A stretch of 63,789 nt of DNA, counting the filler, from Stramenopiles sp. TOSAG23-6 (taxonomy: Eukaryota), in assembly GCA_900128565.1 (NCBI GenBank). It is 38 parts of 38 records of this genome, joined end to end, with 100 filler letters (N's around TTAATTAATTAA, not from the genome) between each part and the next. Parts side by side here need not be neighbours in the genome. Positions count along the whole stretch, not along the records: positions 32,112 to 33,692 come from LT638839.1; 37 more parts are not named here. One strand, written 5' to 3'. Shown here piece by piece: positions 1,823-36,172 of this stretch; positions within the stretch are counted from its first letter, which is position 1, and the number at the start of each line of letters is the position of its first letter. The position numbers and the translations under genes were made by a program. The notes beneath the pieces are model-generated. The model was not told the DNA's origin and made no database searches. It saw nothing but the letters and a program-made list of their open reading frames with translations.

Positions 1823-2560
1823 ATTTGTGTTGGCCACTGTGGTTGGCATAAAGATCAGTTGGCAAGTGAAATATCACGAAATGTTTGGTTTCATGCGCAA
1901 CCTCGTAGGGTTGGGGTTCAAAATTCTCCCAATACAATGAATAAAACTGACCAAAAAATACCTAACCCTAACCCTAACCCGAATAAAACGAATCAAAATC
2001 TGCCTTATCCTGGTTATTGTAAAAAAGCTGAAGCTACTATCGCTCTATTTGGTGTGAGTGGGTCAGTGCAAAAATCGTCTGCTACAGATGAACGTTTTAT
2101 TTTTTTTTTTTTACAAAAAAATCGAATTTATTTTTTTCGTACGAAATTTTGTACCTAACGATTTTTTTTAATTTTTTTTTGAAATATTTTTCCAAAACAA
2201 ATGTCCAACAAAAAATGTGGTCTTGGGGTATTTCTCAATTAGGGAGTAATTATACCGATTTATCGAAATTGAAAGTTGGAGATCATTCATGTATGTTTTT
2301 TTTCATCATGAATTTCTAATTTATTATTTTTTTTTGGTAAAAAAATTTGTAGCTAAATGAAAAAAAAAAAAAAAAAAAAAAAATTCATACGAAATTTCAT
2401 ACCTAACATTTTTTTTTTTTTAAATTTTTTTTTACACCGTTGTACTCTGGCCTATTTTAGGAAATTGTATGATGAAACGCATGGAAAGCATAAAGGAAAA
2501 TATTGATAGCGACGACGTAGAATCGGATACATTTGATGTTCAATATGCTCCTGATTATTA
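1823..2560 (+). CDS. Multi-exon hypothetical protein fragment
   Basis: Open exons separated by stereotyped introns (e.g. 2090-2202); no family recognised; ends approximate. Confidence 0.45.
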
Positions 2561-3597
2561 AACCCTAACCCTAACTCCTGATTATTAAACCCTAACCCTA
2601 ACTAAGAGACAATGAAACATAAAAATATTTTTTTTTTTTTTTTTTNTTTATTTTTTTTAATATGCATATGCATTAACTTTTTTCGTTTGCTGGTGCTGAA
2701 ATTATTATCTAGAGGTTATGATGAGTTAATAACTTTTTGTTTTTTACTTTTTTACTTTTTTACTTTTTTACTTTTTTACTTTTTTAATTTGATGGTCCTA
2801 ACCCTAACCCTAATTTGATGGTCCTGAAATCGATAAACCACCAGAACTTTCAATTTCTAATCTAACCCTTGCAGGCATTCGGCTTATCAGTTGGTTCTTA
2901 AAACGATTCAATAACTTTTTGTCTCTTGAAATTATATGATTAAAAAAGTTCCTAGAAATGCGAATAGAATCATCATTAATATTTTCTTTTCTATCCTCTG
3001 GTAATGAAAATTTATTTTGGAAAAATATTTCAAAACAAAAATTTTAGGTACAATATTTCGTATGAAAAAAAAATCGATTTTTTTTTTTCCGGAAAAAAAA
3101 AATAAAAATAAAACATACATGCACGACAAACATCTTGTGACATTGCCATTTGCTCAACATCTCCTTGACTACATATTAAGAATATTTTGTGGAGAAATAT
3201 TTTTTTTTTTTGGAAAGAAAAACAATTTAGTTAGGTACGAAATTTTATTTAAAAAAAAAAAAAAAAAAAATTTTTAAAAAAAAAAAAAAAAAANNNNNNN
3301 NNNNNNNNNNNNNNNNNNNNNNNNNNNNNNNNNNNNNTTAATTAATTAANNNNNNNNNNNNNNNNNNNNNNNNNNNNNNNNNNNNNNNNNNNNTAGGGTT
3401 AGGGCTATCCTTAAGAATATTCAATATTTGACAATTCAATATTTGTCATATTCAATATGTTTTTACTAGGGTTAGGGNTATCCTTNAGAATATTCAATAT
3501 TTGACAATTCAATATTTGTCATATTTAATAACAATGTAATTCATTAAGGAAATCATTGCTTTTTGAAGACCATAAAGATCTAACCCTAACCCTAATA

Positions 3598-4930
3598 TCA
3601 ATGTAATTCATTAAGGAAATCATTGCTTTTTGAAGACCATAAAGATCTTGAAAAATCATTTTTACTCACACTCAACAATTTATTATTTTTTGATCCTCCG
3701 ACATTAGGGTTAGGGTTAGAAAAAAAATTTGGCATTTCTGGGAGTAAGGGTGGCGATAATAAAGGATTTTGTGGTGTATCAGGGAGTAAAGGTGGTGACG
3801 TCATATATGTAGTATTAGGGTTAGGGTTAGGTGACGTCATATATCTAGTATTACTTGAATTATTCTTCTCTGAGTTGAGTGATAGAATTTCAGGAGTACC
3901 GGGAATGAAATGTATTGTGAAAAAATATATATTGTAGTCAAGATATATATATTAGGGTTAGGGTTTAGTCAAGACATCAAGACATCAAAACATCAAAACT
4001 TTAAAAAAAAAAAAAAATGAAAATTTTGTACAAAAAAAAAAAAAAAAAAATTCAATTAGGGTTAGGGTTAAGTATACAACAGTCATAATGAAAACGAACG
4101 CCCAATCCAGTCTGCCCTGTAGCATTTAACCCTAATAAAGAACTTTTCAATAAATCAGCTTCATTTTTGTTTAAATCCGACATTTCCTGACCTTGACCTT
4201 GAAATTTTATTGGTGTGATATGATTGGTATGCCTAGGGTTAGGGTTTGCTCGTTGATTCGAGCCATTTCCTTTTGGTCTTCCTTTTTTCCGTTTGGATAA
4301 CTTTTTAGCAGGACTTGCTGGAAGCCCTAGTTGTTCTCGTTTACTTAGAGGGATTCCTGACCCAGGTCGTCGTTTGACTCGATCCTAAATTATACAAAAA
4401 AATCAAAAAAAAAAAAATTGTGAGTAGGGTTAGGGTTTTTTTTTTGTTACATATGATACATATATATTTTGGTACAAAAAAAAATTTTGAAAAAAAAAAA
4501 AAAAATGAAATTAGGGTTAGGGTTAAGAGATAAACATACGTAACTCCCTTTAGGACGACCTCGTTTTCGTCCTTTTTTCTTTTGTTCTAATTTATTGATT
4601 TTTTGTAATTGTTTATTTAACTGGCTAACGAGGGCATAATCTCCAATATCAACTGCCGTTTTTAATTGTAAACGTAACCTGTATTGTACAAATATCATGA
4701 TTTAAAAAAAAAAATTAAAAAAATTTTAGGTACAAAATTTCGTACGAAAAAAAAATCATGATTAGGGTTAGGGTTAGAAAAAAATTACATTGATGCTACA
4801 TTTTCTGTTTCTTCTTCGTCGTATTGTTTCGAAATATAAGTATTATTAGCATTATCTATCGATAGAGGCACAAGTTTAGACGTGTCACATGCATTGGAAA
4901 CATCAGTAGAGTTGGGCGGGTTACACGTAC
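3598..4930 (-). CDS. Multi-exon AT-hook-containing low-complexity protein fragment
   Basis: KKGRKRGRPKG and KRKKGRPKG motifs, exons separated by T-rich introns; ends approximate. Confidence 0.5.
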
Positions 4931-5134
4931 TGTAAAAAAATATTTCAAAAAAAAAAAACTTAAATTTGTTAGGTACAAAATTTCGTACGNNNNNNNNNNN
5001 NNNNNNNNNNNNNNNNNNNNNNNNNNNNNNNNNTTAATTAATTAANNNNNNNNNNNNNNNNNNNNNNNNNNNNNNNNNNNNNNNNNNNNACAAATTTTTT
5101 AGATTTTTTTTTGAAATATTTTTCCAAAATACAT

Positions 5135-5251
5135 AATGTGTGTTTTATTCATCCAAAGGGGAACAGTGAATATCCAATTGGTGGTGAAGGTGTTCTTATT
5201 GAATTAGTCCAAGCACCAGAAGACATAATTTTGACACACTCAAATAGTTAA
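5135..5251 (+). CDS. Terminal exon of VOC/glyoxalase-family (methylmalonyl-CoA epimerase-like) protein
   Basis: [28 protein letters not shown] then stop; preceded by intron end ...CCAAAATACAT; not in ORF track. Confidence 0.75.
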
Positions 5252-6148
5252 TTCAACATTAAATATAAGCATTTCAATAAAATAAATAAAAAATAAATAA
5301 CCCTAACCCTACTCTAAAAAAAGTTCTTTTAATCATTTCAAAATTCAAATTGGACACTTTCGCAAGCATACAGCACAGAATTATATCATCACATGTATGT
5401 AGAAAATAAGAAACGTCAACATACCACTTGAATAAAGTATGTTTTGCTCTCTTAGAGTGGCGTTTAGTGAGTGTATCAAATATTTGAAGGGGTATTATTG
5501 TAGTTATTCCTTGGGCTTATTCTCAAATGGATGTAGTAATTTACGTTACGATGTACATGTATTAAGAGGCTTTAAGTACTAACTTGGATATGTACAAAGT
5601 ATCACAATATTCTACCAAAGAGTCCAATATACCAAGCGTGAAATTTGCGTATACAATGCTATTACCAAAGACGATGATATTGTTCAGTTCTCTATTACAA
5701 TACTATGGTAATATATATAACTCTTTGACACTCTTTGACAACCAAAACATCCTCGGATTGTAAGCATAATAGCGACTACTAGCTAGTGATCTAGGTTTGA
5801 TGGTACCACTATAACAAACAGTATACTCAAATTAGTCGTAATTTACTGAAGGATTCGGGTCCCAGTAGTGCAGCATGGCGTACGTTACGACTATAATCCC
5901 CAAGCAGGTTGTGAACAATGTATGAAGGTACACTAGCGTTTTTTGACTTACGTTGAGTTTCGCTATTGTTCCATTTCGACTTGCATCGCATTCTTCTTGT
6001 TGTGCATGACATAAACTACTATAATTTGTGAAGTAAGGATACTGTAACAAAATTAATGAATGCTGGTTATATATGCGTGTAGTACTTCTTTTAAGTAAAG
6101 TGAAAAAAAAAATAGAAAATGCTAACGTGAAAAGTTAATTACAAAATA

Positions 6149-6496
6149 CTACAAAGTTCTAGCTGATGCGTCTATATCTTTTAACTCTCTCATTATACTG
6201 TATCCTTGATTTTCCCTTTCACTCTTTGGAAGAAGTGCTAATTGTTGTTGAATAGCTGAAATTGCACTCAATATTTCTTGTTTGAGTTTTTTTTGTGAGG
6301 GGTCATCCATAAGTTCTTGAGGGGGATCATTTTCGGAGGGGTCTGAATTCATAGGAGCTTGAGGGGATGATGCAGTTGTTGGTGATGGTATTGGTGCTGA
6401 GGCGTCTGGACTTGTCGGTGTGGTGTCCGGTCCGACTGATGCAACTACAGATATTGCAATCACCATAGATTTCAAAAGTATTTGTGCCCTTTTCAT
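6149..6496 (-). CDS. Small hypothetical protein, possible signal peptide followed by Pro/Ser/Thr-rich region
   Basis: 115-aa ORF with hydrophobic N-terminus. Confidence 0.45.
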   Translation of the reverse strand: MKRAQILLKSMVIAISVVASVGPDTTPTSPDASAPIPSPTTASSPQAPMNSDPSENDPPQELMDDPSQKKLKQEILSAISAIQQQLALLPKSERENQGYSIMRELKDIDASARTL

Positions 6497-8512
6497 ATTT
6501 TTTACTGTTAAATCTTACGATAATTCTAAGTGAAGCGAGTGATATATTTGGCGATAAATGATAAAGTGTGAGTAACCGTGTAATGTTACTAGACTTGTAG
6601 AATAGTAGAGATATTATACTGTAGTTACGTCCTATTTAGCTACCTATACCTAAACCTATACCTATACCGGCCCTTGATACCGACNNNNNNNNNNNNNNNN
6701 NNNNNNNNNNNNNNNNNNNNNNNNNNNNTTAATTAATTAANNNNNNNNNNNNNNNNNNNNNNNNNNNNNNNNNNNNNNNNNNNNCGCGACCTCGTCGAAA
6801 TTACCGGCTTTGACGACCACATGATGCATCGGTTCAAGAACTTGTGTTTTGGACGGTAGCCAAGAGAGCGTATATCAATAATAATTGTCAAAAGTAAAAT
6901 GCATCATTTTCACAGAAATGAACGGATACGAATGCATCTTTGAGTATGTGCGTGTTGAACTATCACAGTAGTAAGCATAAACGGTTGCGTGATGACCANN
7001 NNNNNNNNNNNNNNNNNNNNNNNNNNNNNNNNNNNNNNNNNNNNNNNNNNNNNNNNNNNNNNNNNNNNNNNNNNNNNNNNNNNNNNNNNNNNNNNNNNNN
7101 NNNNNNNNNNNNNNNNNNNNNNNNNNNNNNNNNNNNNNNNNNNNNNNNNNNNNNNNNNNNNNNNNNNNNNNNNNNNNNNNNNNNNNNNNNNNNNNNNNNN
7201 NNNNNNNNNNNNCCCGCCGATATAGACACTGAAGCGCTCTCATGTCGATTCAATTAGTCGAGGATCGGAAGATTCATCGGCCACTTTGTAAACGAGCAGC
7301 ACGTGTACTTGTACTGAATGAGCCTTGGGTAAAAAAACAAAATGGGCCGAGTGAGTTGAATTTGGGTAATGAACTTGTTGGGAGGACAAACCATGGGATG
7401 ATTCGTCAGGGCAAGATGCGCAGTGTCAGAATTGCCAGCAGGTCCCAACTCGGTTCTCAGTTCTTCGCAAAACAATGGAATTCCTCCCTCCGGACGAAGA
7501 CATTGCACTGCATAATAGATTTTCTTTTCGCGTATGCTCCGCATCAGGCGAAGAGTGGACAAGAAACCTTTTGCGCAGATAACTTTTAGGTTTTCGAGCG
7601 CAATGTACTGGGCTCCCGCGAGGTTTGTCTGCGTAGTCCCGTCAGATTGCCCAATAAGNNNNNNNNNNNNNNNNNNNNNNNNNNNNNNNNNNNNNNNNNN
7701 NNNNNNNNNNNNNNNNNNNNNNNNNNNNNNNNNNNNNNNNNNNNNNNNNNNNNNNNNNNNNNNNNNNNNNNNNNNNNNNNNNNNNNNNNNNNGTACGGGT
7801 ACTGGCACGATGCGCGCATCAACGGACTGAAAAGTGCTGCGTAGTCAGGCTCCTGCTGTAAGAAAACGCCAGAGATGTCCTTGACCCACGGTGTCGAGCT
7901 CTCGTAGCAAGCTTGTTTTCTGTTTTCGTCGGTCAAATCAAATGCAGGCCTGCAACAAGTGAACCAGTAGTAAGGAGATGTGCTTGTCCTCCAAGGGTGA
8001 ATCAAGGGACCGGCCCCTTCCAGACTAAAACGCTGTAGCCAAGCGCTCGCGCGAATATGATTGCCAGTGCAGTCGATTCGAACGTGTTGCAGATTCTCAA
8101 AATCTTCCGGACACGGTAAGCCCTGGTTCTGATGCAAGACAGGAAGATTTTGGAGGGTTCGGGAGCGTTAAATGAAATCTGGAGTTCATAAGCGAGGAAA
8201 ACCATCCGTTTCTCACGAGTTTTTCAACACTTAATCCCTCCATTAAAAAGACAGGCCAAACCAGTGCTTGTCTGCAGCTAAACTCGTAATAAAAGAATTC
8301 ACCGCTCATCGCCGTCACAAATTGAAAGGACACTAAGGCCATGGGGACACCTTGAATGGGACAGGCCATTGTTTTAGCNNNNNNNNNNNNNNNNNNNNNN
8401 NNNNNNNNNNNNNNNNNNNNNNTTAATTAATTAANNNNNNNNNNNNNNNNNNNNNNNNNNNNNNNNNNNNNNNNNNNNCACTTTTATACTTTATATGTTC
8501 ACCGACATCAGA

Positions 8513-10071
8513 TCAGTTATTTGTTAGTTCCAATTGAATTTGATAATATTTTTTGAGCCCTTCAAATCCTTCATTGTCTAAAAACTCTTCCATTTCAGAT
8601 GTCCAGTGAACCTGAGATCCATTCAATACACATTGACCAGGCCACTTTTGCATCCATTCCGTTCGAGATATATTTGTGTAATCCACAACACTTTCCCACA
8701 TTCGTGCTCGCATGGCAAGACACATGCCATTTTCCACCCCGTTCATCCAAATCTCGACGTTGACATTAGAAGTTACAACATGTTCAGTAAATTGAACCTC
8801 TTCTTTTTCCTTTGATTGCATGCTAGTGATACAATTATCTTTATTAAATTTAACAGTTTTTATTGCTTCAAAGCATTTTTTCAAGTGGGGTTGTACTAAT
8901 GTAGGGTCTTTAGTCTCTGATAAAATCTCGAGTAATTCGTCATTTGATAAAAAGTAAAAACGAGAAAAACCTGCTCGCTTCGTTTCTAAATAATCCGACA
9001 ATCCTTTCATTACAAGGTCTAGAAACTTCACAGACTCTTGAAATTGTTCACAAAGTTTTGGATTATCACAAAACTCAACAGCTTTTAATCTTTTTTTGGC
9101 TGAAATCATAATTTTCCTCCAATTCTTATCGACTGTGAAAAAACGTTTTGTTTCAATAGGCAACTGTTTTTTAATATCATCGCTGTCGAAAATAGGCTGT
9201 AAATATAGCCAATTGCGTTGAACTGCGAGCCACTCTTCGATCATTTCACTGATATTACTCAATGTTTTCTCCCATTCTTCAATTTCCTCTTCAAAAGGTC
9301 CTTTGAATGACGAAAATGACATCGCTTGAGTCATTGTCACATGCTCATCCAATAGTGCAATAATAACATCTGCTTCCTTTATAATAAAAGTACCAGTGTC
9401 ACGGTATGGTTCGATCAAAAGTTGAACTTCTTCCCACTCTGCTTTCATGCCCAGTAATGCCTTTTCCAATTGAAATGACGAATTACTCGAGATTTTCCAA
9501 TTGAAATTCTTTTCCTGCTGTTTCTCCAATCTTTATTAGTACCTCTTCTTGCTCAACAACACCAAGATCTATAAGTTTTTGAAGTGTGAAAACGCTTTTA
9601 GTAGGATCAAGGTTTAAGCTAAGCTTTTCATTAATTAATTTCCAATGACGCTCTCGCATTCCGGGATTGCGCATGGCTAAAATTGATGGAACTAGCGGTT
9701 TGATCAAGTATATCATTAACAACACTCTCACACTCGACAACATGGTTTGTCTTGAAATATTTCCTTGCCTTTAAAAGTTTTCGGTTATATTCATGAATTC
9801 TCTTTTCAAGTATGTCAGCATCAATTTTTTCAAAATGATCATGTTTCCATAGTGACTCATTTTTTGTCCAGCCATCGACCGTTTGCCACAAGTTCTTGTA
9901 AGGCACAAAATCTTTCTGGATGCTATTGAGAATGGGATATTCAGTAATGTCTATGTTAAACAATCCTTCACGAGAGTTGAACAACATTGCATTCTCCTTT
10001 GCAAGCTTGATTTTCTTTTCAATATTTATTACACAATTATTTACCAAAGCAGCCTTCTTTGGATCTATGAA
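8513..10071 (-). CDS. Axonemal inner-arm dynein heavy chain fragment (DHC_N2/linker, DNAH1-like), with two frame disruptions
   Basis: RNPGMRERHW, WLAVQRNWLYLQPIF, YLETKRAGFSRFYFLSNDELLEILS, VQPHLKKCFE; frame breaks near 9480 and 9700. Confidence 0.93.
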
Positions 10072-10366
10072 NNNNNNNNNNNNNNNNNNNNNNNNNNNNN
10101 NNNNNNNNNNNNNNNTTAATTAATTAANNNNNNNNNNNNNNNNNNNNNNNNNNNNNNNNNNNNNNNNNNNNATGTAATATAAAGATATTCCAAAACGACG
10201 TTGGAAACCTTGACCATGTAACATCAATGCAACCTAAGAAATGTTGCATAATCATGTAACAATGTTTGTTTGAACTTTTAAAACAGAAATTTGTAAATTT
10301 TTTTCTTCATTTTGATTTTTTTATAAAAGAATTATATACAATAATTGTAATCCTATTTATTAAAAA

Positions 10367-11763
10367 TTAAGAAAAATATCTTTCTTCATCGCGTTTAGCC
10401 TGTTCAGCTTTGGAATCAGTTTTATTTTTAACTTGTTTCTTTTCAATATATGATCTTTTCATAATTTTCTTTCCTTTCCGTTTCTTCACTGGAGCGGCCG
10501 CTCGAGCCATTGAACGCCTTAATCTTTCTTCATATTCTTCTTGTTGAATCGCTAAGCGATCTTGTCTTACTTTTTCTCTGCGTTCTTTTTCCTTTGCTTT
10601 TTCTGCCATTTCGACATATTCAGGATCCATTTCGCTCATTTGGTTGAGTAGATTTTCCAAAGTTCCTTCAAGATCCGTGAGCATGCTTAATGTAGATGGA
10701 TTCGCAGATGCATCCAAATTACAAGCAATATAAACTTTCCTTACTTTTTGGTTTAGATTGGTGATAAGTTGATCAGTTGTTTCTTTACCAGATTTACTAG
10801 CTACACGTTGGGATAAAGAGGATAAATTGTTTTTGTCTACTTTAATCTGTGTTTGTAATTCAGAAATATTTGATTTCAATGACTGTGTCTTACCATCCAT
10901 TCTTTTTCGAGTATCAATATATTCCTGTCTTAATTCTTCCAATGCTTGCTCAGTCTCTTGACTGTTTTGAATAAGAAATAAATTTGATTCTTCAAGAGCT
11001 GTAAAAATATCCAATAGTTGGTTAGGATTTTTGAAATACATTGGAATATCTTCATCAGACGAAACTATATCCTCCTCTTCCAACAATGGAGCCCGAGGAA
11101 TTCTTGGCTTAAATTTAGATTTATCTTTTTTTCTTCTGATTTTTCCCTCTTTTGCAAGTCTCTCAGTCTCCGCTGCTTCTTTATCGGCAGCATCTTTCAC
11201 TGCGATCTCTTTTTCTCTTTCCCAAATTATCATTTTATTTTCCCAACTTTTGACACGTCTTTCCTCTTGACGATCAGATTTAACTTTACGTTGTGACTGA
11301 AAATATTCTTCTGGTGTAAGGGAATCCAAGAATATTTTATACTCTTCACATAATTCTAAAAGTTCCTTCAATTTTGACATTTCACTTTGTACAATTTGAA
11401 TTTGACCTTTTAACTTTTTTACTTGCATAATTTTTTCTTGTTTTCTTTTTGTTTCTGCTTCAGTGCGCTTAATCGCATCATGTGCCTTTTTATCATTTTC
11501 TTTCAAAAATGTATCAAACCGTATCGCATCCTCTTCTAACATCAATTCAGATTTACGAAGCGCTTCTTCTTTAAGTTGTGCTTTTTCCTCAAGTTTTCGT
11601 ATTTCTTCGCGTTTTGTATCAAGTGACATTTGAACAAGAAACATTTCACGTTTTTTTGCAATAAATGATGACATATCTTCCTTTTCGTGATGATGATTTG
11701 ATGTTATAGAAGCCCTATCTGCAGCCTCAGTAACTTTTTCTTGTTCACCATTGTCTTCACCAT
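10367..11763 (-). CDS. CFAP100: Cilia- and flagella-associated protein 100 (CCDC37, DUF4200), 5' partial, intronless here
   Basis: FIAKKREMFLVQMSLDTKREEI..LEEDAIRFDTFLKEND and MYF..P.QLLDIF..LEE.NLFLIQNSQETE motifs. Confidence 0.88.
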
Positions 11764-26960: not shown

Positions 26961-27081
26961 NNNNNNNNNNNNNNNNNNNNNNNNNNNNNNNNNNNNNNNN
27001 NNNNTTAATTAATTAANNNNNNNNNNNNNNNNNNNNNNNNNNNNNNNNNNNNNNNNNNNNTTTTTTTTTCTTAGGGAATTT

Positions 27082-27384
27082 TTTACCAAAAAAAAAAAAA
27101 AAAATTCAATTTTTTTTTTTTTTTTTTCCTTCACAATACAGACATCGTATATACACTTGCAAAACAAGCTAATTTATTGGGTGCATTTAAATTGGCTCGA
27201 TATGCCTATTCTAGATTACAAAGATTACTTATACCGAAAGACTGGAGAGATCAATTAGATGTTGCTATCATGTATGTTTTAATTTTTTTTTGAATTTTAA
27301 TTTTTTTTGAATTTTTTATTTTTTTTTATTTATTTTTTTTTTTTTTTTTTATACAAAAAATCATTCTTTTGTTCAGCATGAATT

Positions 27385-27416
<32 letters not shown>

Positions 27417-28584
27417 GTACGAAATTTTGTACCTAACAAATTTCAAAAAAAAATTTTGAAATATTTTCTAAAAAAACATGACATTACAAGCCATGCCGTT
27501 TTCAGATAAAAGTGAATTATTACCAGTGTGCTATCGATGTGCAAATACAAATCCTTTAGTAAATAATTATTCTATTGGTGATGTCTGTGTGACATGTCAA
27601 CATCCATTTATTCGATCATTTTCAAATTTTGATATATTGCCTCTGGTAGAATGTTTGTTTTCAATTTCGAATTTAATTTTTTTTTTTTTTTTCAATTTCA
27701 ATTTCAATTTCGAATTTAATTTTTTTTTTTCATACGAAATTTCGTACCTAACAAATATTTTGGATTTTTTTAGATATTGTCAAACAAAAAAGTTGCACCA
27801 GATCCTACACTAAATATTGATGAAGAGACAGTTGATATATTATTAAGTCAAATTGGTGACATTGACTCAAAAAACACTGTACATAGTAAAACGAGTACAA
27901 TGAAGAATTCGTCAATTCGTAAAAATAATTCAAATTCTCAATATAATGAGGATAATGATGAAAAAGAAACTGATATAAATGAAGAAATCGCGCAAATTGA
28001 CACGTGGCATGCAAATCAAAATAATGATGAAGATGATGATAACGATGAATCAATAGATTTATTTCAAGAAGCAATGCAATCACAAGTTCCACGATCGATT
28101 AAACCTGAGTCTCATACACGAAAAACGAGACATAATGTACGATTTCAAAATTGAATTTTTTTTTTTTTTTTTTTTTNNNNNNNNNNNNNNNNNNNNNNNN
28201 NNNNNNNNNNNNNNNNNNNNNNNNNNNNNNNNNNNNNNNNNNNNNNNNTCAAATCAAAAATTTCAAAATTTCACAATATAGGATCGCTTACCACAACACA
28301 AACCTGTTTATGTTGATGAAAAAATATTACGCCAAATGGATCCATCAGAAGTGTTTATAGCACGTAGTAACAACATCAACGTTAAAACAAAATATTACAA
28401 AAATGTTTTACCTCAACAAGTAAAAATTGTTTTAGGACCGGGTAACCGATTTTTTAATTTAGAAGAATATGAATTTTTATACCTTGAACATGGATTCTCT
28501 CCAGTATGTCGTCAGATTGATAAAAATATGGAAATGGTAGATACAAAAATTAACTCTAAAAATAATGTAGGTTTTGGTAGTGAA
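27082..28584 (+). CDS. IFT122: Intraflagellar transport protein 122, C-terminal exons; introns 27272-27479, 27653-27792, 28137-28281
   Basis: YTLAKQA..LGAFKLARYAY.RL, PF.D..ELLPVCYRC...NPL, C..CQHPFIRSF..FDILPLVEF, FF..EEYE match IFT122/WDR10. Confidence 0.9.
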
Positions 28585-28944
28585 TGTTTTTTTTTTGTAT
28601 GAAAATTTTGTACCTAAAAAAAAATCGTATGAAAAAAAAAATTTTNNNNNNNNNNNNNNNNNNNNNNNNNNNNNNNNNNNNNNNNNNNNTTAATTAATTA
28701 ANNNNNNNNNNNNNNNNNNNNNNNNNNNNNNNNNNNNNNNNNNNNTACTGGGATTGTGAATTGCTTGTGTATGACTTGACTTCGACTTCGACTTCATTTT
28801 AATATTTTATGAAAAATTTCATAAAAAATTAAAACATTGTTAATTTTTTCTGAAAAATTGATTTTTATGAAAAAAAATTCCATTGACTCTTACGGCCATA
28901 CAGCATAAAACCCTTATACCCTTACAGCCATGTAGCATACACCA

Positions 28945-30253: not shown

Positions 30254-30577
30254 GGCGCGTCAAAACTAATATTTACAGAAAATATCAAAAAATAAAGAAT
30301 TTCAACTCATGTATTTACTTTTTTTCACTNNNNNNNNNNNNNNNNNNNNNNNNNNNNNNNNNNNNNNNNNNNNTTAATTAATTAANNNNNNNNNNNNNNN
30401 NNNNNNNNNNNNNNNNNNNNNNNNNNNNNAAAAATATATATTATTATTTATTTTTTCAAAATGACAGAATTACATATAAGTAATAATAATAATTAAAAAT
30501 ATATTTTATTTTTTATTTTTTCAAAATGACAGAATTACATATACGTAATAATAATAATTAAAAATATATATTATTTT

Positions 30578-31753
30578 TTATTTTTTCAAAATGACAGAAT
30601 TATAATGCGCACCAAGAGCAAAATAATGTTTGTGAAAAGAAAGTCGTAATGGTGGACTATCCAAGTTAGGGTTAGGGTTTTCGAGACTAGGGTTAGGGTT
30701 CATGTGTACCGTTGGGCCTGTTGCATAAAAAACATCAATTTTTGAAGCAAGTGCAGCTGATAAAGCTTTAATTTCTATTTCACCACCCCATGTCGCTGTT
30801 GTTTCTATCAAATCACAATACATTTCAAATTTTGATTTTTTTGATGATTTTGATAATTTTGATTGATTTAAATGATGAATGCTCTCCGAATTGTCATGTA
30901 TTGATTCACAGTTTTTTGTAATAGAATTTTCTCCAGCTGCGGCAAGAATAAATGGTGAAAATTCTTGCTCATGTGTCCGAATATATTCTGCTGTTAATGA
31001 ACGCAAAAATGAAATTTCATCATTTTTTACACATTTTTTCAAAACATTTTCGTTACATGAAATTGATGCAATTGTTGCAGCTTTAATTGCTGATGTGCCT
31101 AGAGACTTCAATTGATCTGCAACAGCTCTGTATAAACAATTTCCATCTGAAATGATTTCTTTAATGATACAAGGCATTTTAACACATTGAGCTATTTTTT
31201 TTTCCAAGAGCTGCGTTTCTTCTAGGCGTTCGTTGACTGTTCCTTGTTGGATTCGTTTTTTTTCTTTTTCTAATTCGATATTTCTTGCCTTGGCTTTTGC
31301 TCTCTTTTTTTGAGCTCGCGTCAGTTTTTTCGTGTTTGTTGTTGTACTTGTTGTATTGCTGTCTGATATTGGAATATTATTTTCGACATTCCATCGTCTA
31401 CGGGCTTCATTGACACTAGCGTCATCAGTATGAAGACCCATTGCGTCTAATTCTTCTTCATGTCGTTTTTTAATGTTGGATTCCTCTTCAGTAAACCTTG
31501 CCCATATTAGTTTTCTTTTGGTACGGTTTTTCTTTCCCACCAAACCTACTTTCGCTAAAGTAAGATTCTTTAATTCCAATAGTTCAAGTTGTTGCCGATC
31601 AATCAGAGAGGCCAGAGGAGTTTTCTCCACTACGACTGCCATTTCCGCTGGTTCAACCAAGGGAACTGGTGGTAGGGATGCATTAGCAAGTTTCTCCTCT
31701 TCTTCCAGCTTTGCCGCTGCAATTGCATCCATTAAAAAATCCGGTACAGACAT
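30578..31753 (-). CDS. OTUD6B: OTU-domain deubiquitinase OTUD6B/Otu2-like, copy 1
   Basis: I.SDGNCLYRAVADQL, WGGEIEIKALS, LSFHKHYFALGAHYNSV. Confidence 0.9.
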   Translation of the reverse strand: MSVPDFLMDAIAAAKLEEEEKLANASLPPVPLVEPAEMAVVVEKTPLASLIDRQQLELLELKNLTLAKVGLVGKKNRTKRKLIWARFTEEESNIKKRHEEELDAMGLHTDDASVNEARRRWNVENNIPISDSNTTSTTTNTKKLTRAQKKRAKAKARNIELEKEKKRIQQGTVNERLEETQLLEKKIAQCVKMPCIIKEIISDGNCLYRAVADQLKSLGTSAIKAATIASISCNENVLKKCVKNDEISFLRSLTAEYIRTHEQEFSPFILAAAGENSITKNCESIHDNSESIHHLNQSKLSKSSKKSKFEMYCDLIETTATWGGEIEIKALSAALASKIDVFYATGPTVHMNPNPSLENPNPNLDSPPLRLSFHKHYFALGAHYNSVILKK

Positions 31754-32207
31754 GCTGTATACAATTTATTGAACAAGAAACAATCAATCAAAATGTATGG
31801 CTCTTTTTGTCTTTTGTGCTGTTGTTGTATGCGAACGAATGAACGAACTCGTAAGTCGTGTTTCAATATTAGTATGATTAGTATTGAATAGTTTCAGTCA
31901 AGTTGTTGACAATGTTGAGTCAACTGATGATTTATTTAGATTATGAAAAAATTGAAAAAAAAACAACTGACTCTTCTGAACAGGTTTGCGCAAAAATATG
32001 ATGGGTTTCATNNNNNNNNNNNNNNNNNNNNNNNNNNNNNNNNNNNNNNNNNNNNTTAATTAATTAANNNNNNNNNNNNNNNNNNNNNNNNNNNNNNNNN
32101 NNNNNNNNNNNAATGTATGTTTTATATGAATTTCTAATTTAATTTTTTTTTCATACGAAATTTCGTGCCTAACGATTTTTTTTTTGAAATATTTTTTCAC
32201 AATACGT

Positions 32208-33664
32208 GCACATAACCCAAATAACCGAAATTTGGTTGCTGAAGTCAGTGTGAAGGAACCGAAAACTTATGGAGAAGGAAATGCTCATCGTGTTATGGTT
32301 GTCGATTGTGGTATGAAGAATAATATGATCCGCTGTTTTGTTGACCGAGGTGCTGAAGTTACTGTTGTTCCATGGAATTACGATTTTACCAACATGAGCG
32401 AATGGGATGTATGTTTTATTTTTTTTTCAATTTCGAATTTATTTTTTATAGTAAATTTTGTACCTAACGAATTTTTTTTTGAAATATTTTTCCAAAATAC
32501 ATGGTTTATTTATTTCCAATGGACCGGGTAACCCTGCGATGTGTACTGAGACTGTTGAACACTTAAAAAAAGTAATTGATATAACAGAAAAGCCAATATT
32601 TGGAATTTGTATGGGAAATCAATTAATTTCACTTGCTGCCGGTGCATCTACATATAAGATGAAGTTTGGCAATCGCGGGCAAAATGTACGTTTTCAAAAT
32701 TGAATATCGAATTTATTTGTTTTTCATAGAAAGTTTTGTATCTAACGATTTTTTTTCTTACTCAAAAAAAAATATTTTTTCACAATTTATATTCCTGTCA
32801 AAAATGTCTTAACTGGAGAGTGTTTTATTACGCCTCAAAATCATGGGTATGCAGTTGATCCATCAACAATGTATATTTTCATCATTCATTTCAATTTCGA
32901 ATTTATTTATTTTTTATACGAAATTTTGTACCTAACGGCGAACATTTTTTTTCAAGTAAATATTTTTGTTTTTATCATTTATTTCAAATTATTCTTTTTG
33001 TATCTACAATATCTTGCCTAACTCAAAAATCAAATGTTTAAAATACTTTTTTACTTTACATGACAAGCGATTGGCGCCAATTGTTTTACAACGCAAATGA
33101 TGGAACAAATGAAGGTATAATTAATGTACACAGACCTGTCTTTTCTGCTCAGTTTCATCCTGAACACCGAGGAGGTCCTGACGATACCGAGTATTTTTTT
33201 GATGTATTCATGGATATGGTGCGAAATCCCACAGCGCGCCCAAAACTATGGGCATCTCCTAACTTTCCACCACCAAAAGCAGAAGGACGGACTATGCTTC
33301 CACCCCCAGTTCCAAAAGTAACTGATATTAAAAAAGTTTTGATTTTAGGATCAGGCGGTTTATGTATGTTTTATTTTTTTTCAATTTCGAAATAATTTTT
33401 CGTACGAAATTTTGTACCTAATTTTTTTCTGAAATATTTTTCCAAAATACATCAATAGGACAAGCTGGAGAGTTTGATTATTCTGGAGCACAAGCGATTA
33501 AAGCTCTAAAGGAGGAAGGTGTTAAAGTTGTCTTGATGAATCCTAATATTGCATCTGTACAAACAAATGTTGACAAATCCACCGAGATGCAAGCTGATCA
33601 AGTATATTCAGTCCCTGTCACTTTTGACTTTGTTGAAGGTGTTATCAAAAAAGAAAGACCTGAT
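32208..33664 (+). CDS. Glutamine-dependent carbamoyl-phosphate synthase, GATase domain fused to large subunit (CAD/CPS type); introns 32409-32502, 32686-32790, 32871-33061, 33364-33452
   Basis: [71 protein letters not shown]. Confidence 0.96.
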
Positions 33665-33802
33665 GTATGTTTTATTTTTTTTCAAATTCGATNNNNNNNN
33701 NNNNNNNNNNNNNNNNNNNNNNNNNNNNNNNNNNNNTTAATTAATTAANNNNNNNNNNNNNNNNNNNNNNNNNNNNNNNNNNNNNNNNNNNNCAAAATAC
33801 AA

Positions 33803-34990: not shown

Positions 34991-35510
34991 ATAAATTTTC
35001 TTTGAACAATTTTGAGCAATTTTTTTTTTTACAACTAAGAAAATTTTATGGCTATTAGTAAATTTATTTTATTCCGCTTAGACTCAGAAAGACATTTGGT
35101 AACGCAAATTTTAACTGTTCTCACATTTCATTAACTTTTGTCTGATATCCTCCACCATGAGCATAGCTATAAAGTGTATTTAAGACTGGCACTAGTGGAG
35201 TATTTCCACCTTCCCACATTAAAGCCATTCGTCTATTATTTGGATCTCTTGAAGGACATTTTGTTCCGTCAATTCGTGCATGACAAAGAAACCCAACGGC
35301 TACATCGCTTTTGCCACGACAATTAAGTTGGAAACATTGACACTTTAAATTTTTGAGTTCTCCCCACCTAGTNNNNNNNNNNNNNNNNNNNNNNNNNNNN
35401 NNNNNNNNNNNNNNNNTTAATTAATTAANNNNNNNNNNNNNNNNNNNNNNNNNNNNNNNNNNNNNNNNNNNNTTTTTAGATTTTTTTTGAAATATTTTTT
35501 CAAAATACTT

Positions 35511-36172
35511 GGTTTACTACGTAAAAATGAATTTTTTTTAATTGCTGAACGAAAAGGAAAAATTGTTGGTTTTGTTAATTATTATTTTACTTGGTTTCGT
35601 GGCTCTCAAAATGATGAATTTGAAGATATTGATGATGATGATGTAAAAGAAAAAAATTCAAAAAAATCAAAAAAAAATCAAAAATCAAAAAAAAACAGTT
35701 TTGTTGATCCTATGGAAAAAACACGAAATCCGAAAAAAAATCAAAAATCGAAACAAGTGATGTATGTGGCAACTTTACAAGCCATTAAAAAAAAATCTCA
35801 TCCAGATGTTTTTTCTACACTAGGTGAACCGGGTATCAGTGAACCTAGATGTGGGACTGTTCTTTTATGTTTAGCCATGAAGCATGGATTGTGTACGTTT
35901 TCATTTGAAATTTTTTTCAAATTTTTTTTAAATTTTTTTCAAATTTTTTTTAAATTTTTTTCAAATTTTTTCTTCTCAAAAAAAAAAAAAAAAAATTAAT
36001 TTTTTTTCATACAAACTTTCATACCTAACATGTTTTTTTTGACAAAAAAATATTTTCCTTCACAATACATATATGGGTATGGAAACTCTTTATTTAGATG
36101 CTACCACAAATTCGATAAATTTTTATGAAAAATTTTTTAATATGAAGAAATGTGTCGCACGAAAAGGTCATA
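35511..36172 (+). CDS. GNAT-family acetyltransferase fragment (mirrored on minus strand at 36353-37014 by fold-back)
   Basis: FLIAERKGKIVGFVNY, MYVATLQ, GTVLL..AM, LYLDAT..SINFYEK. Confidence 0.7.

What the first reader, a model, noticed from the sequence alone, without database searches (positions are those of the whole stretch)
32409..33452. Genome-wide intron class that mostly lacks the 3' AG (GT...AT introns)
Seen: in highly conserved enzymes the reading frame and motifs are restored only by removing introns ending in AT. Examples are CPS 32409-32502 ([10 protein letters not shown]), 32686-32790, 32871-33061 and 33364-33452 (GGL-S-IGQAG); GMPR 47535-47644 and 47784-47875; oxidase 12664-12762 and 12921-12960; VPS13 43504-43678 (LH-I-RYED); IFT122 27272-27479. 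The same intron family ends in AG at the homologous position in a minority (27653-27792, 28137-28281 CAATATAG, 59618-59739), which fixes the register. Other inferred ends are TT (~14907, ~45182), TG (~44199) and CT (~60214). The cut usually falls 4 nt after a conserved AAATATTTTT(CCAA/TCAC)AAT box. Established: the spliceosomal 3' AG is nearly invariant, read by U2AF35 and by pairing with G+1 in the Prp8 active site; mass exceptions are known in Fritillaria, Amoebophrya and euglenozoans. Inference: this flagellate selects the 3' splice site by a motif-anchored ruler rather than by AG. I do not recognise this architecture from described systems.
Basis: partly seen in the sequence, partly recalled or inferred. 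Interest (0 to 1): 0.92.

Follow-up and report, generated by a model that had tools for sequence, protein, structure and literature searches.

The report
Repeated introns spliced without AG
Genes of this uncultured marine flagellate are interrupted by many copies of one ~100-base repeated intron that is cut out at GT...AT instead of the near-universal GT...AG, and a public gene model of the organism has missed this.

Summary
The window is 38 unlinked ~1.6 kb contigs joined by N linkers. A source label and stramenopile-like best hits suggest a MAST-3-type assembly. One intron family (about 40-210 nt) fills it, with 71 conserved cores in 22 of 38 contigs. Its form is exon AT|GTAYGTTTT ... TTTCGTACGAAATTTTGTACCTAAC ... 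AAATATTTTT(CCAAAAT/TCACAAT)ACAT|G.

Removing GT..AT gave gapless colinearity with homologues at 7 of 7 junctions tested: CPS 4, GMP reductase 2, IFT122 1. A polyA-RNA contig joins 33361 to 33451, skipping exactly the 89 nt of CPS intron 4. Independent DNA contigs keep AT at two CPS intron ends. Flanking frames match in 23 of 30 informative introns (P = 1.5e-6).

- The introns are one high-copy, introner-like element.
- AT stands on both sides, so GT..AT, TG..CA and AT..AC give the same mRNA in most copies.
- The pattern mirrors canonical AG|GT..AG|G with T in place of G.

The "ruler" idea is partly supported. Four odd-ended introns are in frame at box+4, but three box-less introns still end in ACAT.

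The closest known systems are the Fritillaria and Amoebophrya introners and rare U12-type GT-AT introns. I rate it a new variant of a known kind, and my searches did not find it described.

The parts
32115..32207 (+). First family intron of the CPS contig. Its upstream exon lies outside the contig. It ends ...CACAATACGT, and the exact 3' cut is unresolved.
32409..32502 (+). CPS intron, 94 nt: gat|GTATGTTTT..AAAATACAT|gg
   Evidence: Colinear with P0002 ([13 protein letters not shown]). In frame.
32686..32790 (+). CPS intron, 105 nt: aat|GTACGTTTT..CACAATTTAT|at. In the -2 register it would read AT..TT.
   Evidence: tblastn gap of exactly 35 codons between GNRGQN and IPVKN.
32871..33061 (+). 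CPS intron, 191 nt, GTATAT..CTTTACAT. Its 3' end has no box.
   Evidence: Gapless against P0002 ([13 protein letters not shown]). DNA contig X1 record 6 keeps AT. An AG 6 nt downstream would delete 2 residues; the public model P0001 reads DPSTIDWRQLF here, without M-TS.
33364..33452 (+). CPS intron, 89 nt: tat|GTATGTTTT..AAAATACAT|ca
   Evidence: PolyA RNA contig X8 record 24 joins 33361 to 33451. Colinear GGL|SIGQAG.
33666..33692 (+). Start of the next family intron (gat|GTATGTTTT), cut by the contig end.
   Evidence: RNA contig X10 record 10 leaves the genome at 33665 and goes on with the next exon.
47784..47875 (-). GMP reductase intron, 92 nt, GT..AT
   Evidence: PDB 2a7r_A numbering 181/182/183. 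In frame.
47535..47644 (-). GMP reductase intron, 110 nt: cac|GTACGTTGT..CAATACAT|gg (exon flank AC, not AT)
   Evidence: PDB numbering 228/229.
48696..48789 (-). Family intron in the 5' untranslated part of the GMP reductase gene, cut by the contig end.
27272..27479 (+). IFT122 intron, 208 nt, GT..AT
   Evidence: PDB 8bda_L numbering 992/993/994.
27653..27792 (+). IFT122 family intron ending in AG: aat|GTTTGT..CAAAAAAG|tt
   Evidence: In frame. No homologue check (one search found nothing).
12664..12762 (+). Multicopper oxidase intron, 99 nt, GTATAT..CAATACAT
   Evidence: Restores HTHGMH|VSPLGHGDN. The automated frame test was misled by an overlapping ORF.
12921..12960 (+). 40-nt mini-intron, GTATGTTTT..GCTTACAT, without the core or the 3' box
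   Evidence: in frame; restores GGGM|AGAIIVEE
14111..14252 (+). Family intron, GT..AT
14590..14687 (+). Family intron ending in AG, exon flank AT
   Evidence: The frame fits only the shorter downstream ORF.
14758..14907 (+). Intron with a GTAAGT start, the family core, and an end ...CCAAAATACTT (TT). The exon flank is also TT.
   Evidence: in frame at box+4
22163..23081 (-). Four GT..AT family introns in one gene: 22163-22280, 22473-22565, 22773-22872, 22976-23081
   Evidence: 4 of 4 in frame
3010..3118 (-). Family intron, GT..AAAT
35893..36070 (+). Family intron: tgt|GTACGT..ATACAT (exon flank GT)
   Evidence: The contig is a perfect palindrome.
43504..43678 (-).
   Evidence: ends read only; no homologue check
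44110..44199 (+). Family intron: cag|GTTTGT..CACAATTTTG (TG end)
   Evidence: in frame at box+4
44979..45182 (+). Double-core intron: act|GTACAT..CACAATATTT (TT end)
   Evidence: in frame at box+4
50814..50948 (-). Family intron: ttt|GTATGT..ATACAT (exon flank TT)
51528..51630 (-). Family intron, GT..AT
52763..52922 (+). Family intron, GT..ATAT
53188..53282 (+). Family intron, GT..AAAT
59618..59739 (+). Double-core family intron ending in AG: gat|GTATGT..CAACACAG|gg
59829..60023 (+). Intron tat|GTACATTTT..CATATTACAT|ac in the same gene
60115..60214 (+). Family intron whose family-register end is CCT. A canonical CACAG| at 60229 is also in frame.

Best explanation
These are real introns of spliceosomal (most likely U2-type) design. 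All are copies of one short element that has multiplied through the genes of a marine stramenopile; a source label and the protein hits suggest a MAST-3 lineage.

Each copy carries a yeast-like 5' site (GTAYGT), a palindrome followed by a branch-site-like TACCTAAC 31-47 nt from the end, a T-rich box, and a terminal (T)ACAT. RNA processing removes exactly GT...AT. In most copies this is the same as AT...AC, because AT also ends the upstream exon. The 3' cut is therefore set by element-internal sequence (ACAT, and/or the CAMAAT box plus 4 nt) and not by AG. Where the last T has become G, an ordinary AG is used in the same register.

Shown: precise AG-less removal, family membership, and high copy number.
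Inferred: the GT..AT register, the spliceosomal mechanism, and spread by transposition (introner-like, possibly with a 2-nt AT target duplication).
For: Precise removal:
- 7 of 7 junctions are colinear with homologues.
- One polyA RNA contig crosses a junction exactly, and one RNA contig uses the next donor.
- 23 of 30 informative introns join the dominant flanking frames, P = 1.5e-6.
- 18 of 20 AT-ended introns have no AG in their last 40 nt.

Not an assembly error:
- Independent DNA contigs keep AT (X1 records 6 and 8).

Spliceosomal look (n = 24):
- GT 24 of 24, +3 A 23, +5 G 21, +6 T 24.
- A CTAAC-type motif lies 31-47 nt from the end in 23 of 24.

One family at high copy:
- 71 cores in 59 kb, in 22 of 38 contigs, against 0.4 in shuffles.
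- 6774 DNA-metagenome contigs lie on this 1.6 kb, mostly on its intron parts, against 6 in the polyA library.
- 29 of 76 contig ends fall near a family motif.

Register:
- Of the 20 AT-ended introns, read in the GT..AT register in which they were chosen, only 13 can also be read AT..AC. The flank is not AT in 3, and -4/-3 is not AC in 4.
- AG-ended copies keep the exon flank AT.

Taxon:
- P0001 carries the label GSMAST32 at 99% identity, and oomycetes are prominent among the named full-length hits.
Against: - RNA evidence covers one junction and one donor only; the rest is homology and frames.
- 7 of 30 informative introns failed the automated frame test. One failure lies on a contig that looks chimeric: an IFT122-TPR exon joined to an IPT/TIG exon. 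One was misled by an overlapping ORF. One needs a second AG 5 nt on, and one needs AT 2 nt on. Three stay unexplained.
- The GT..AT register cannot be told from AT..AC by mRNA in most copies. Where the flank differs (47535-47644, 35893-36070), both registers give the same protein.
- G(+1) with U(-1) is not a known compatible first-last pair (recalled).
- No snRNA or splicing factor of this organism could be examined (no genome held; Rfam found nothing in the window).
- Inverted termini are short (GTAT..ATAC). No transposase and no empty site were seen.
Confidence: 0.8

Rival explanations
1. The true termini are AT...AC. The cut lies 2 nt upstream at both ends, using the known A(+1)/C(-1) compatible pair, and GT..AT is only an equivalent way of writing it.
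For: - Exon -2/-1 is AT in 22-23 of 24 introns, and intron -4/-3 is AC in 19-23 of 24.
- The aligner itself placed the RNA joint at 33361/33451, which reads AT..AC.
- The A-C pair is the established alternative to G-G (recalled).
Against: - 7 of 20 AT-ended introns cannot be read as AT..AC. Among them are CPS 32686-32790 (would be AT..TT) and GMP reductase 47535-47644 (would be AC..AC), both with homologue-verified junctions.
- |ATGTATGT matches no known 5' site consensus, whereas |GTATGT is canonical.
- AG-ended copies align T to G at the last position.
Confidence: 0.17
2. The family is an expanded set of minor (U12-type) introns. That spliceosome tolerates non-AG ends and sets the 3' cut by distance.
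For: [quoted passage not shown]
- GTATGTTTT shares 7 of 9 letters with the minor 5' consensus, and TACCTAAC resembles TCCTTAAC (both consensus sequences recalled).
- Some stramenopiles have minor introns.
Against: - +5/+6 is GT, not CC (21 and 24 of 24).
- The branch-like motif lies 31-47 nt from the end, not the roughly 10-20 nt typical of U12 introns (recalled).
- Minor snRNAs could not be sought.
Confidence: 0.1
3. Removal is not spliceosomal. It could be structure-guided excision, as in euglenid non-conventional introns, or elimination at the DNA level.
For: - The intron ends can pair (GUAU with AUAC) in about half of the minimum-energy folds.
- Direct repeats sit at the borders.
Against: - The helix is only 3-4 weak pairs, and the GTACGT subfamily breaks it without compensation.
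- The GTAYGT and CTAAC motifs are strongly conserved.
- DNA metagenome contigs contain the introns together with their exons (X1 records 3, 6 and 8).
Confidence: 0.04
4. It is an artefact: amplification or assembly errors, or contaminant DNA, produce false AT ends.
For: - The assembly is poor. One contig is a perfect palindrome.
- One contig looks chimeric.
- Contigs often break near family motifs (29 of 76 ends).
Against: - An independent metagenome reproduces the intron-exon borders with 0-4 differences.
- An RNA contig shows the exact joint.
- The same ends recur in dozens of copies.
Confidence: 0.02

Closest known systems
Non-canonical introners of the tunicate Fritillaria borealis
   Same: Short repeated elements inside genes are removed by splicing at non-GT/AG ends. 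The splice sites are element termini, and the U2-type spliceosome does the work (introduction of the 2025 preprint).
   Different: There fewer than 10% of introns obey GT/AG, and both ends vary. Here GT and a full canonical 5' consensus are kept, and only the last intron letter differs (T for G). This is one family with a conserved branch motif, in a protist rather than an animal.
Introner elements and non-canonical introns of Amoebophrya (Syndiniales)
   Same: A marine protist with repeated intronic elements and direct repeats over the exon/intron borders, so the borders are ambiguous. Over 60% of its introns are non-canonical (passages).
   Different: Amoebophrya has 8-20 nt inverted repeats pairing the ends, 3-5 nt direct repeats, no dominant dinucleotide pair, and no U1 detected. 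Here the inverted ends are about 4 nt, the direct repeat is 2-3 nt (AT or ATG), and the borders are uniformly GT..AT with a strong 5' consensus.
Canonical introners (Micromonas, Aureococcus and many aquatic taxa)
   Same: A multi-copy, near-identical intron family that fills genes of a marine picoeukaryote, with a possible target duplication supplying one border.
   Different: Those use GT-AG (discussion passage). The survey pipeline depends on annotations and drops families with mostly unfamiliar splice sites unless RNA supports them (methods passage), so a family like this one would be missed.
U12-type (minor) introns with GT-AT ends
   Same: The same terminal dinucleotides, and a 3' cut that does not need AG.
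   Different: Those are rare single introns with the RTATCCTT and TCCTTAAC motifs and a short distance from branch to end (recalled). Neither motif nor the distance is met here.
Non-conventional introns of euglenids
   Same: Removal without GT-AG borders. End-pairing is proposed to bring the borders together.
   Different: Those lack conserved borders (recalled; the papers appeared only in the listing and were not read). Here the borders are highly conserved and the end pairing is marginal.

Membership tests
U2-type spliceosomal intron | 5' GT with an extended consensus able to pair with U1/U6 | tested here: met
   GT 24 of 24; GTAYGT in most: +3 A 23, +4 T16/C7, +5 G 21, +6 T 24
U2-type spliceosomal intron | Branch-site motif (CURAY/UACUAAC-like) upstream of a pyrimidine-rich stretch | tested here: met
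   TACCTAAC-type motif in 23 of 24 introns, 31-47 nt from the end, followed by T runs. Actual branching was not shown.
U2-type spliceosomal intron | 3' terminal AG | tested here: not met
   -1 is T in 21 of 24 and G in 3 of 24. By eye, AT 42 and AG 7 of 55.
U2-type spliceosomal intron | Precise removal from mature polyadenylated RNA | tested here: met
   One junction in polyA RNA contig X8 record 24; one donor in X10 record 10. Only the CPS contig could be laid.
U2-type spliceosomal intron | Lariat formation; dependence on U2 snRNP | not testable with these tools
   No raw reads and no genome held.
U12-type (minor) intron | 5' motif RTATCCTT | tested here: not met
   +5/+6 are G/T, not C/C. 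The consensus is recalled.
U12-type (minor) intron | TCCTTAAC branch motif about 10-20 nt from the 3' end | tested here: not met
   TACCTAAC lies 31-47 nt from the end.
U12-type (minor) intron | Minor snRNAs in the genome | not testable with these tools
   No genome. No Rfam hit in the window, which covers only 64 kb.
Introner / non-autonomous transposon-derived intron | Many near-identical copies at unrelated intron positions | tested here: met
   71 cores in 22 of 38 contigs, in CPS, GMP reductase, IFT122, a multicopper oxidase and other genes. 6774 metagenome contigs laid.
Introner / non-autonomous transposon-derived intron | Terminal inverted repeats | tested here: inconclusive
   GTAT..ATAC is perfect for 4 nt, and about 8 of 9 with one bulge in the CCAAAAT subfamily. 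That is too short to score.
Introner / non-autonomous transposon-derived intron | Target-site duplication | tested here: inconclusive
   For: AT before GT and AT as the last 2 nt in most copies; TT/TT at 14758-14907; G/G at 44110-44199. Against: AG-ended copies have AT flanks, and three AT-ended copies have GT, TT or AC flanks.
Introner / non-autonomous transposon-derived intron | Insertion polymorphism or empty sites; an autonomous partner | not testable with these tools
   The only near-duplicate contig pair (97.35% identical) has no family copy. No transposase was seen, but only a few ORFs were scanned.
Amoebophrya-type introner element | 8-20 nt inverted repeats joining the intron ends, plus 3-5 nt direct repeats | tested here: not met
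   The end helix is 3-4 pairs in about half of the folds. The direct repeat is 2 nt, or 3 nt (ATG) in 14 of 24.

The most novel reading that the evidence does not exclude
A whole eukaryotic lineage may have re-specified one letter of the splice code. Its major spliceosome would read AU|GU...AU|G where other eukaryotes read AG|GU...AG|G. It would use a G(+1)/U(-1) terminal pair and fix the 3' cut by an intron-borne motif instead of by AG and U2AF35. A self-propagating intron element carrying that code would then have colonised thousands of gene positions.
Probability: 0.35. Interest if true: 0.92.

Novelty: new variant of a known kind. Interest (0 to 1): 0.8.

Why it matters
- It would be a clean natural case of mass splicing in which only the last intron nucleotide departs from the rule. 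The 5' site and branch motif stay canonical. That makes it a sharper probe of how the 3' site is chosen in the second catalytic step than the heterogeneous Fritillaria or Amoebophrya cases.
- It adds a heterotrophic stramenopile to the lineages in which repeated elements create introns. It also shows such a family that annotation-based introner surveys would filter out.
- It has a practical cost. The public protein model of this CPS contig (P0001) is mis-spliced: it reads into introns and drops conserved segments.
- If this is general, gene counts and claims of gene loss or poor enzyme repertoires drawn from such assemblies need re-checking. That last point is inference; I examined no other model.

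Tried and rejected
- Whole genome: none is held.
Only the CPS contig could be laid, so no RNA test exists for any other gene.
- Depth figures (intron parts in the thousands, exons about 8-10) are not used as copy numbers. They are per-contig sums and may include other organisms. I use only the count of contigs laid.
- Stretches of the CPS contig without RNA cover say nothing. X5 record 18 starting exactly at 33453 is at most a weak hint.
- Small shares of the stretch's words in runs X5-X17 are not used for habitat.
- Two scans of metagenome contigs, with the 21-nt core and with a gapped core+box pattern, found 0 loci. No relatives could be studied.
- Rfam on the window gave no hit.
- PDB search with the IFT122 exon after the AG intron gave no hit, so that AG junction has frame support only.
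- Pfam on the two short exons of the 59560-60463 gene gave no hit. The argument that the split codon TGG gives W, as in a PH-domain 'GWL' start, and so fixes the GT-AG register, rests on my recall only.
- An end-pairing helix as the mechanism is weak. The sum of pair probabilities between the ends ranges from 0.05 to 7.4, with no compensatory pattern across the two subfamilies.
- The 56594-56710 intron as evidence for a shifted cut is rejected. Its two exons belong to different protein families, so the contig is probably a chimera through the repeat.
- The first Pfam batch of exon ORFs failed on a frame error and was not re-sent. One literature query failed on syntax and was not re-sent.
- Supplementary files of papers were not opened. 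The supplements of the MAST single-cell genome paper and of the introner surveys could mention intron features or species lists that bear on novelty.
Full report
**What the window is**

The 63,789 bases are not one locus. They are 38 contigs of 1,597 down to 1,563 bases, sorted by length and joined by 100-base linkers (N44, TTAATTAATTAA, N44). Neighbouring genes are therefore unlinked, and the CPS segment is one contig, 32112-33692. No whole genome is held.

The best protein match to a CPS exon is P0001, at 99% identity. Its source labels it 'GSMAST32.ASY1.ANO1.426.1'. Oomycetes are prominent among the named full-length relatives, at about 48-52% identity. I read this as a MAST-3-type marine stramenopile from a fragmented, probably single-cell, assembly. 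In keeping with that, the sequence is found mainly in seawater metagenomes and metatranscriptomes.

**Check of the observation**

A relative, P0002 (1,384 aa, 63% identical), aligns by tblastn without loss or gain of a residue across all four junctions:
- ...[13 protein letters not shown]
- GNRGQN|IPVKN, with a gap of exactly 35 codons
- [13 protein letters not shown]
- GSGGL|SIGQAG

For GMP reductase, PDB chain 2a7r_A gives exon 1 to residue 181, the split codon at 182, exon 2 at 183-228, and exon 3 from 229. For IFT122, chain 8bda_L gives 992, 993 and 994 across 27272-27479. That is 7 exact junctions of 7 tested.

I had one call for laying reads, and it could take only one contig. It gave these results:
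- A polyA metatranscriptome contig (X8 record 24, 249 nt, one mismatch) covers 33256-33361 and continues at 33451-33593. It skips exactly 89 nt.
- An RNA contig of another study (X10 record 10) follows the exon to 33665 and then continues with letters that read as the next CPS exon.
- Contigs of an independent DNA metagenome (X1 records 3, 6 and 8; 0-4 differences) carry the exon-intron borders. No difference is listed at 33060-61 or 33451-52.

So the AT ends are neither assembly errors nor bypassed through nearby AGs. At intron 4 the nearest AG would create a stop codon, and the RNA contig keeps those letters.

**Extent**

- The 3' box occurs 67 times against 6.8 expected.
- A stricter core, AAA(A/T)(T/G)T(T/C)N-T(A/G)(C/T)CTAA, occurs 71 times, in 22 of 38 contigs, against 0.4 in shuffles.
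- 29 of 76 contig ends lie within 130 nt of a family motif, which suggests the assembly often breaks near the repeat.
- On the 1.6 kb CPS contig, 6,774 contigs of DNA metagenome X1 were laid, most of them on the intron parts. The polyA library X8 gave 6.

I listed 33 complete introns by eye. Of these, 30 had one clearly dominant open frame on each side, and in 23 of the 30 the two frames join correctly (P = 1.5e-6 against one third).

The seven failures were:
- 12664-12762: misled by an overlapping ORF; the oxidase motifs fit.
- 56594-56710: its exons are an IFT122 TPR piece and an IPT/TIG piece, so the contig is probably chimeric through the repeat.
- 42552-42729: fits a second AG 5 nt on.
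- 55823-55942: fits an AT 2 nt on.
- 13704-13802, 14590-14687 and 56034-56161: unresolved, or they fit only shorter ORFs.

**Anatomy (24 frame-supported introns)**

- 5' side: exon -2 is A in 22 and -1 is T in 23. The intron reads G24 T24 A23 (T16/C7) G21 T24 T23 T20 T24.
- Interior: the palindrome TTTCGTACGAAA, then TTTTGTACCTAAC.
- The CTAAC-type motif lies 31-47 nt from the end. The spacer of A/T runs varies in length.
- 3' side: ...TTT(C/T)CA(C/A)AATACAT. Position -4 is A in 23, -3 is C in 19, -2 is A in 23, and -1 is T in 21 and G in 3. The next exon starts with G in 14.
- Two subfamilies go together: GTATGT with CCAAAATACAT, and GTACGT with TCACAATACAT.
- Lengths run from 40 to 208 nt. 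Several introns hold two cores.
- In the family register, 55 recognisable 3' ends read AT 42, AG 7, TT 2, GT 2, TG 1 and CT 1 (by eye, list).

**Which register**

AT precedes GT and AT ends the intron. So GT..AT, TG..CA and AT..AC give the same mRNA in most copies, and no RNA read can separate them there.

I favour GT..AT for three reasons:
- The 20 AT-ended introns examined were picked in the GT..AT register. Only 13 of them can also be read AT..AC. The flank is GT, TT or AC in 3, and -4/-3 is TT, AT, AA or AA in 4. The 7 include two with homologue-verified junctions.
- |GTAYGT is a canonical donor, and |ATGTATGT is not.
- Copies ending ...ATACAG or ...ATATAG put G where the others have T, and they still have AT, not AG, before the donor.

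This is an inference. At the informative introns both registers happen to give the same amino acid.

**How the 3' cut is set**

There are several AT dinucleotides between the branch-like motif and the real end, so 'first AT' cannot be the rule.

Four introns with other last letters are in frame exactly 4 nt after the CAMAAT box: 14758-14907 TT, 44110-44199 TG, 44979-45182 TT and 60115-60214 CT. The last of these has an in-frame CACAG| 15 nt on that may be the one used.

But three introns lack the box and still end in ACAT: 12921-12960 (40 nt, no core), 32871-33061 and 14111-14252. So the signal is either the terminal (T)ACAT, or the box plus 4 nt, or both redundantly.

A third reading explains the ruler without any ruler. 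If each copy arose as an insertion of GTA...ATAC plus a duplicated 2-nt target, then only removal of element+2 restores the gene, whatever the two letters are. In favour are the TT/TT pair at 14758-14907 and the shared G at 44110-44199. Against it are the AG-ended copies with AT flanks.

End pairing (GUAU with AUAC) appears in about half of the predicted folds. It is only 3-4 weak pairs and is not compensated between the subfamilies.

18 of 20 AT-ended introns have no AG in their last 40 nt. That would fit a machinery that would still take an AG if one were offered, but the copies are related, so this is weak.

**A pattern worth stating**

The consensus AT|GTAYGT...ACAT|G is the canonical AG|GT...YAG|G with T in place of G at the two homologous places (recalled consensus). 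Either a duplication made the two ATs, or this spliceosome prefers U at both positions. I cannot tell which.

**Comparison with known systems**

- Fritillaria borealis removes transposon-derived introns at non-GT/AG ends with the U2-type spliceosome. The ends are the elements' inverted repeats (I read the introduction and abstract).
- Amoebophrya has over 60% non-canonical introns. Part of them are repeated elements with 8-20 nt inverted and 3-5 nt direct repeats, and no dominant dinucleotides (passages).
[quoted passage not shown] Here the minor 5' motif and the short distance from branch to end are not met.
- Canonical introners use GT-AG. The large survey discards families with unfamiliar splice sites unless RNA supports them (passages).

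This case differs from all of these. It has one family, a fully canonical donor and branch motif, and a nearly uniform single-letter departure at the acceptor.

**Is it in print?**

- The paper on single-cell genomes of uncultured stramenopiles holds 'intron' twice (methods only), and never 'splice' or 'canonical' (find).
- The MAST comparative-genomics paper never uses 'intron'. The only 'splice' passage shown is a spliced-leader reference title, and 'canonical' refers to proton pumps (find).
- The Incisomonas paper has no occurrence of 'intron', 'splice' or 'canonical' (find).
- Searches for introner + MAST gave 0 papers.
- MAST-3 + 'splice site' gave 1 unrelated paper.
- The other searches (MAST-3 + single-cell + stramenopiles + introns; GT-AT + non-canonical introns + protist; introners + non-canonical splice + TIR + TSD) listed nothing on this, judging by titles and abstract starts.
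- Supplements were not seen, and subscription journals are not covered.
- The public model P0001 of this very contig reads into two introns and drops [27 protein letters not shown] and a 25-residue stretch.

**Verdict**

The best reading is an introner-like family of spliceosomal-type introns cut at GT..AT (confidence 0.8 for the whole; about 0.93 for AG-less precise removal, and about 0.7 for the register and for U2-type splicing). It is a new variant of a known kind, and of high interest.

The search of earlier findings was closed, no whole genome was held, and supplements were not available.

Noticed in passing
whole window; linkers e.g. 32012-32111: The window is a chain of 38 contigs sorted by falling length (1,597 to 1,563 nt), joined by N44 + TTAATTAATTAA + N44 linkers. 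Adjacency of genes carries no meaning.
   Followed up: yes
35473-37052: This contig is 100% identical to its own reverse complement over all 1,580 nt. It is an inverted chimera of the kind made by whole-genome amplification.
   Followed up: partly
30430-32011 and 62227-63789: Two contigs are 97.35% identical over their full length, and both encode a 395-aa OTU-like cysteine protease ORF. They may be two alleles, cells or strains in a co-assembly. Neither holds a family intron.
   Followed up: partly
55569-57134 (minus strand): The contig joins an IFT122 TPR exon to an IPT/TIG-domain exon through a family intron. It is probably an assembly chimera across the repeat. A second IFT122 piece lies on contig 27061-28645.
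   Followed up: partly
protein P0001 (model of 32112-33692): The public protein model of the CPS contig is mis-spliced. It translates intron sequence ([26 protein letters not shown]) and omits conserved segments.
   Followed up: yes
12921-12960: A 40-nt mini-intron keeps only the family's 5' part and the terminal TTACAT. It has no core and no box, yet its removal is needed to keep the oxidase frame.
   Followed up: partly
1959-1985 (+) and about 4760-4780 (-): Short runs of CCCTAA-type (telomere-like) repeats lie directly beside or inside family elements, starting from the TACCTAAC motif.
   Followed up: no
23690-24545: A tandem array of about 176-nt units at 92-99% identity.
   Followed up: no
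39913-40412: A perfect 250-nt tandem duplication at the end of contig 38833-40412.
   Followed up: no
contigs 5090-11763, 15247-20215 and others: 16 of 38 contigs have no family core. Among them are long intron-free ORFs: a dynein heavy chain piece (339 aa), a DUF4200 protein (464 aa), and a 527-aa ORF with no Pfam match. Intron load is very uneven, or some contigs come from another genome.
   Followed up: no
48696-48789 (minus strand): A family intron sits in the 5' untranslated region of the GMP reductase gene, upstream of the ATG at 48363.
   Followed up: no
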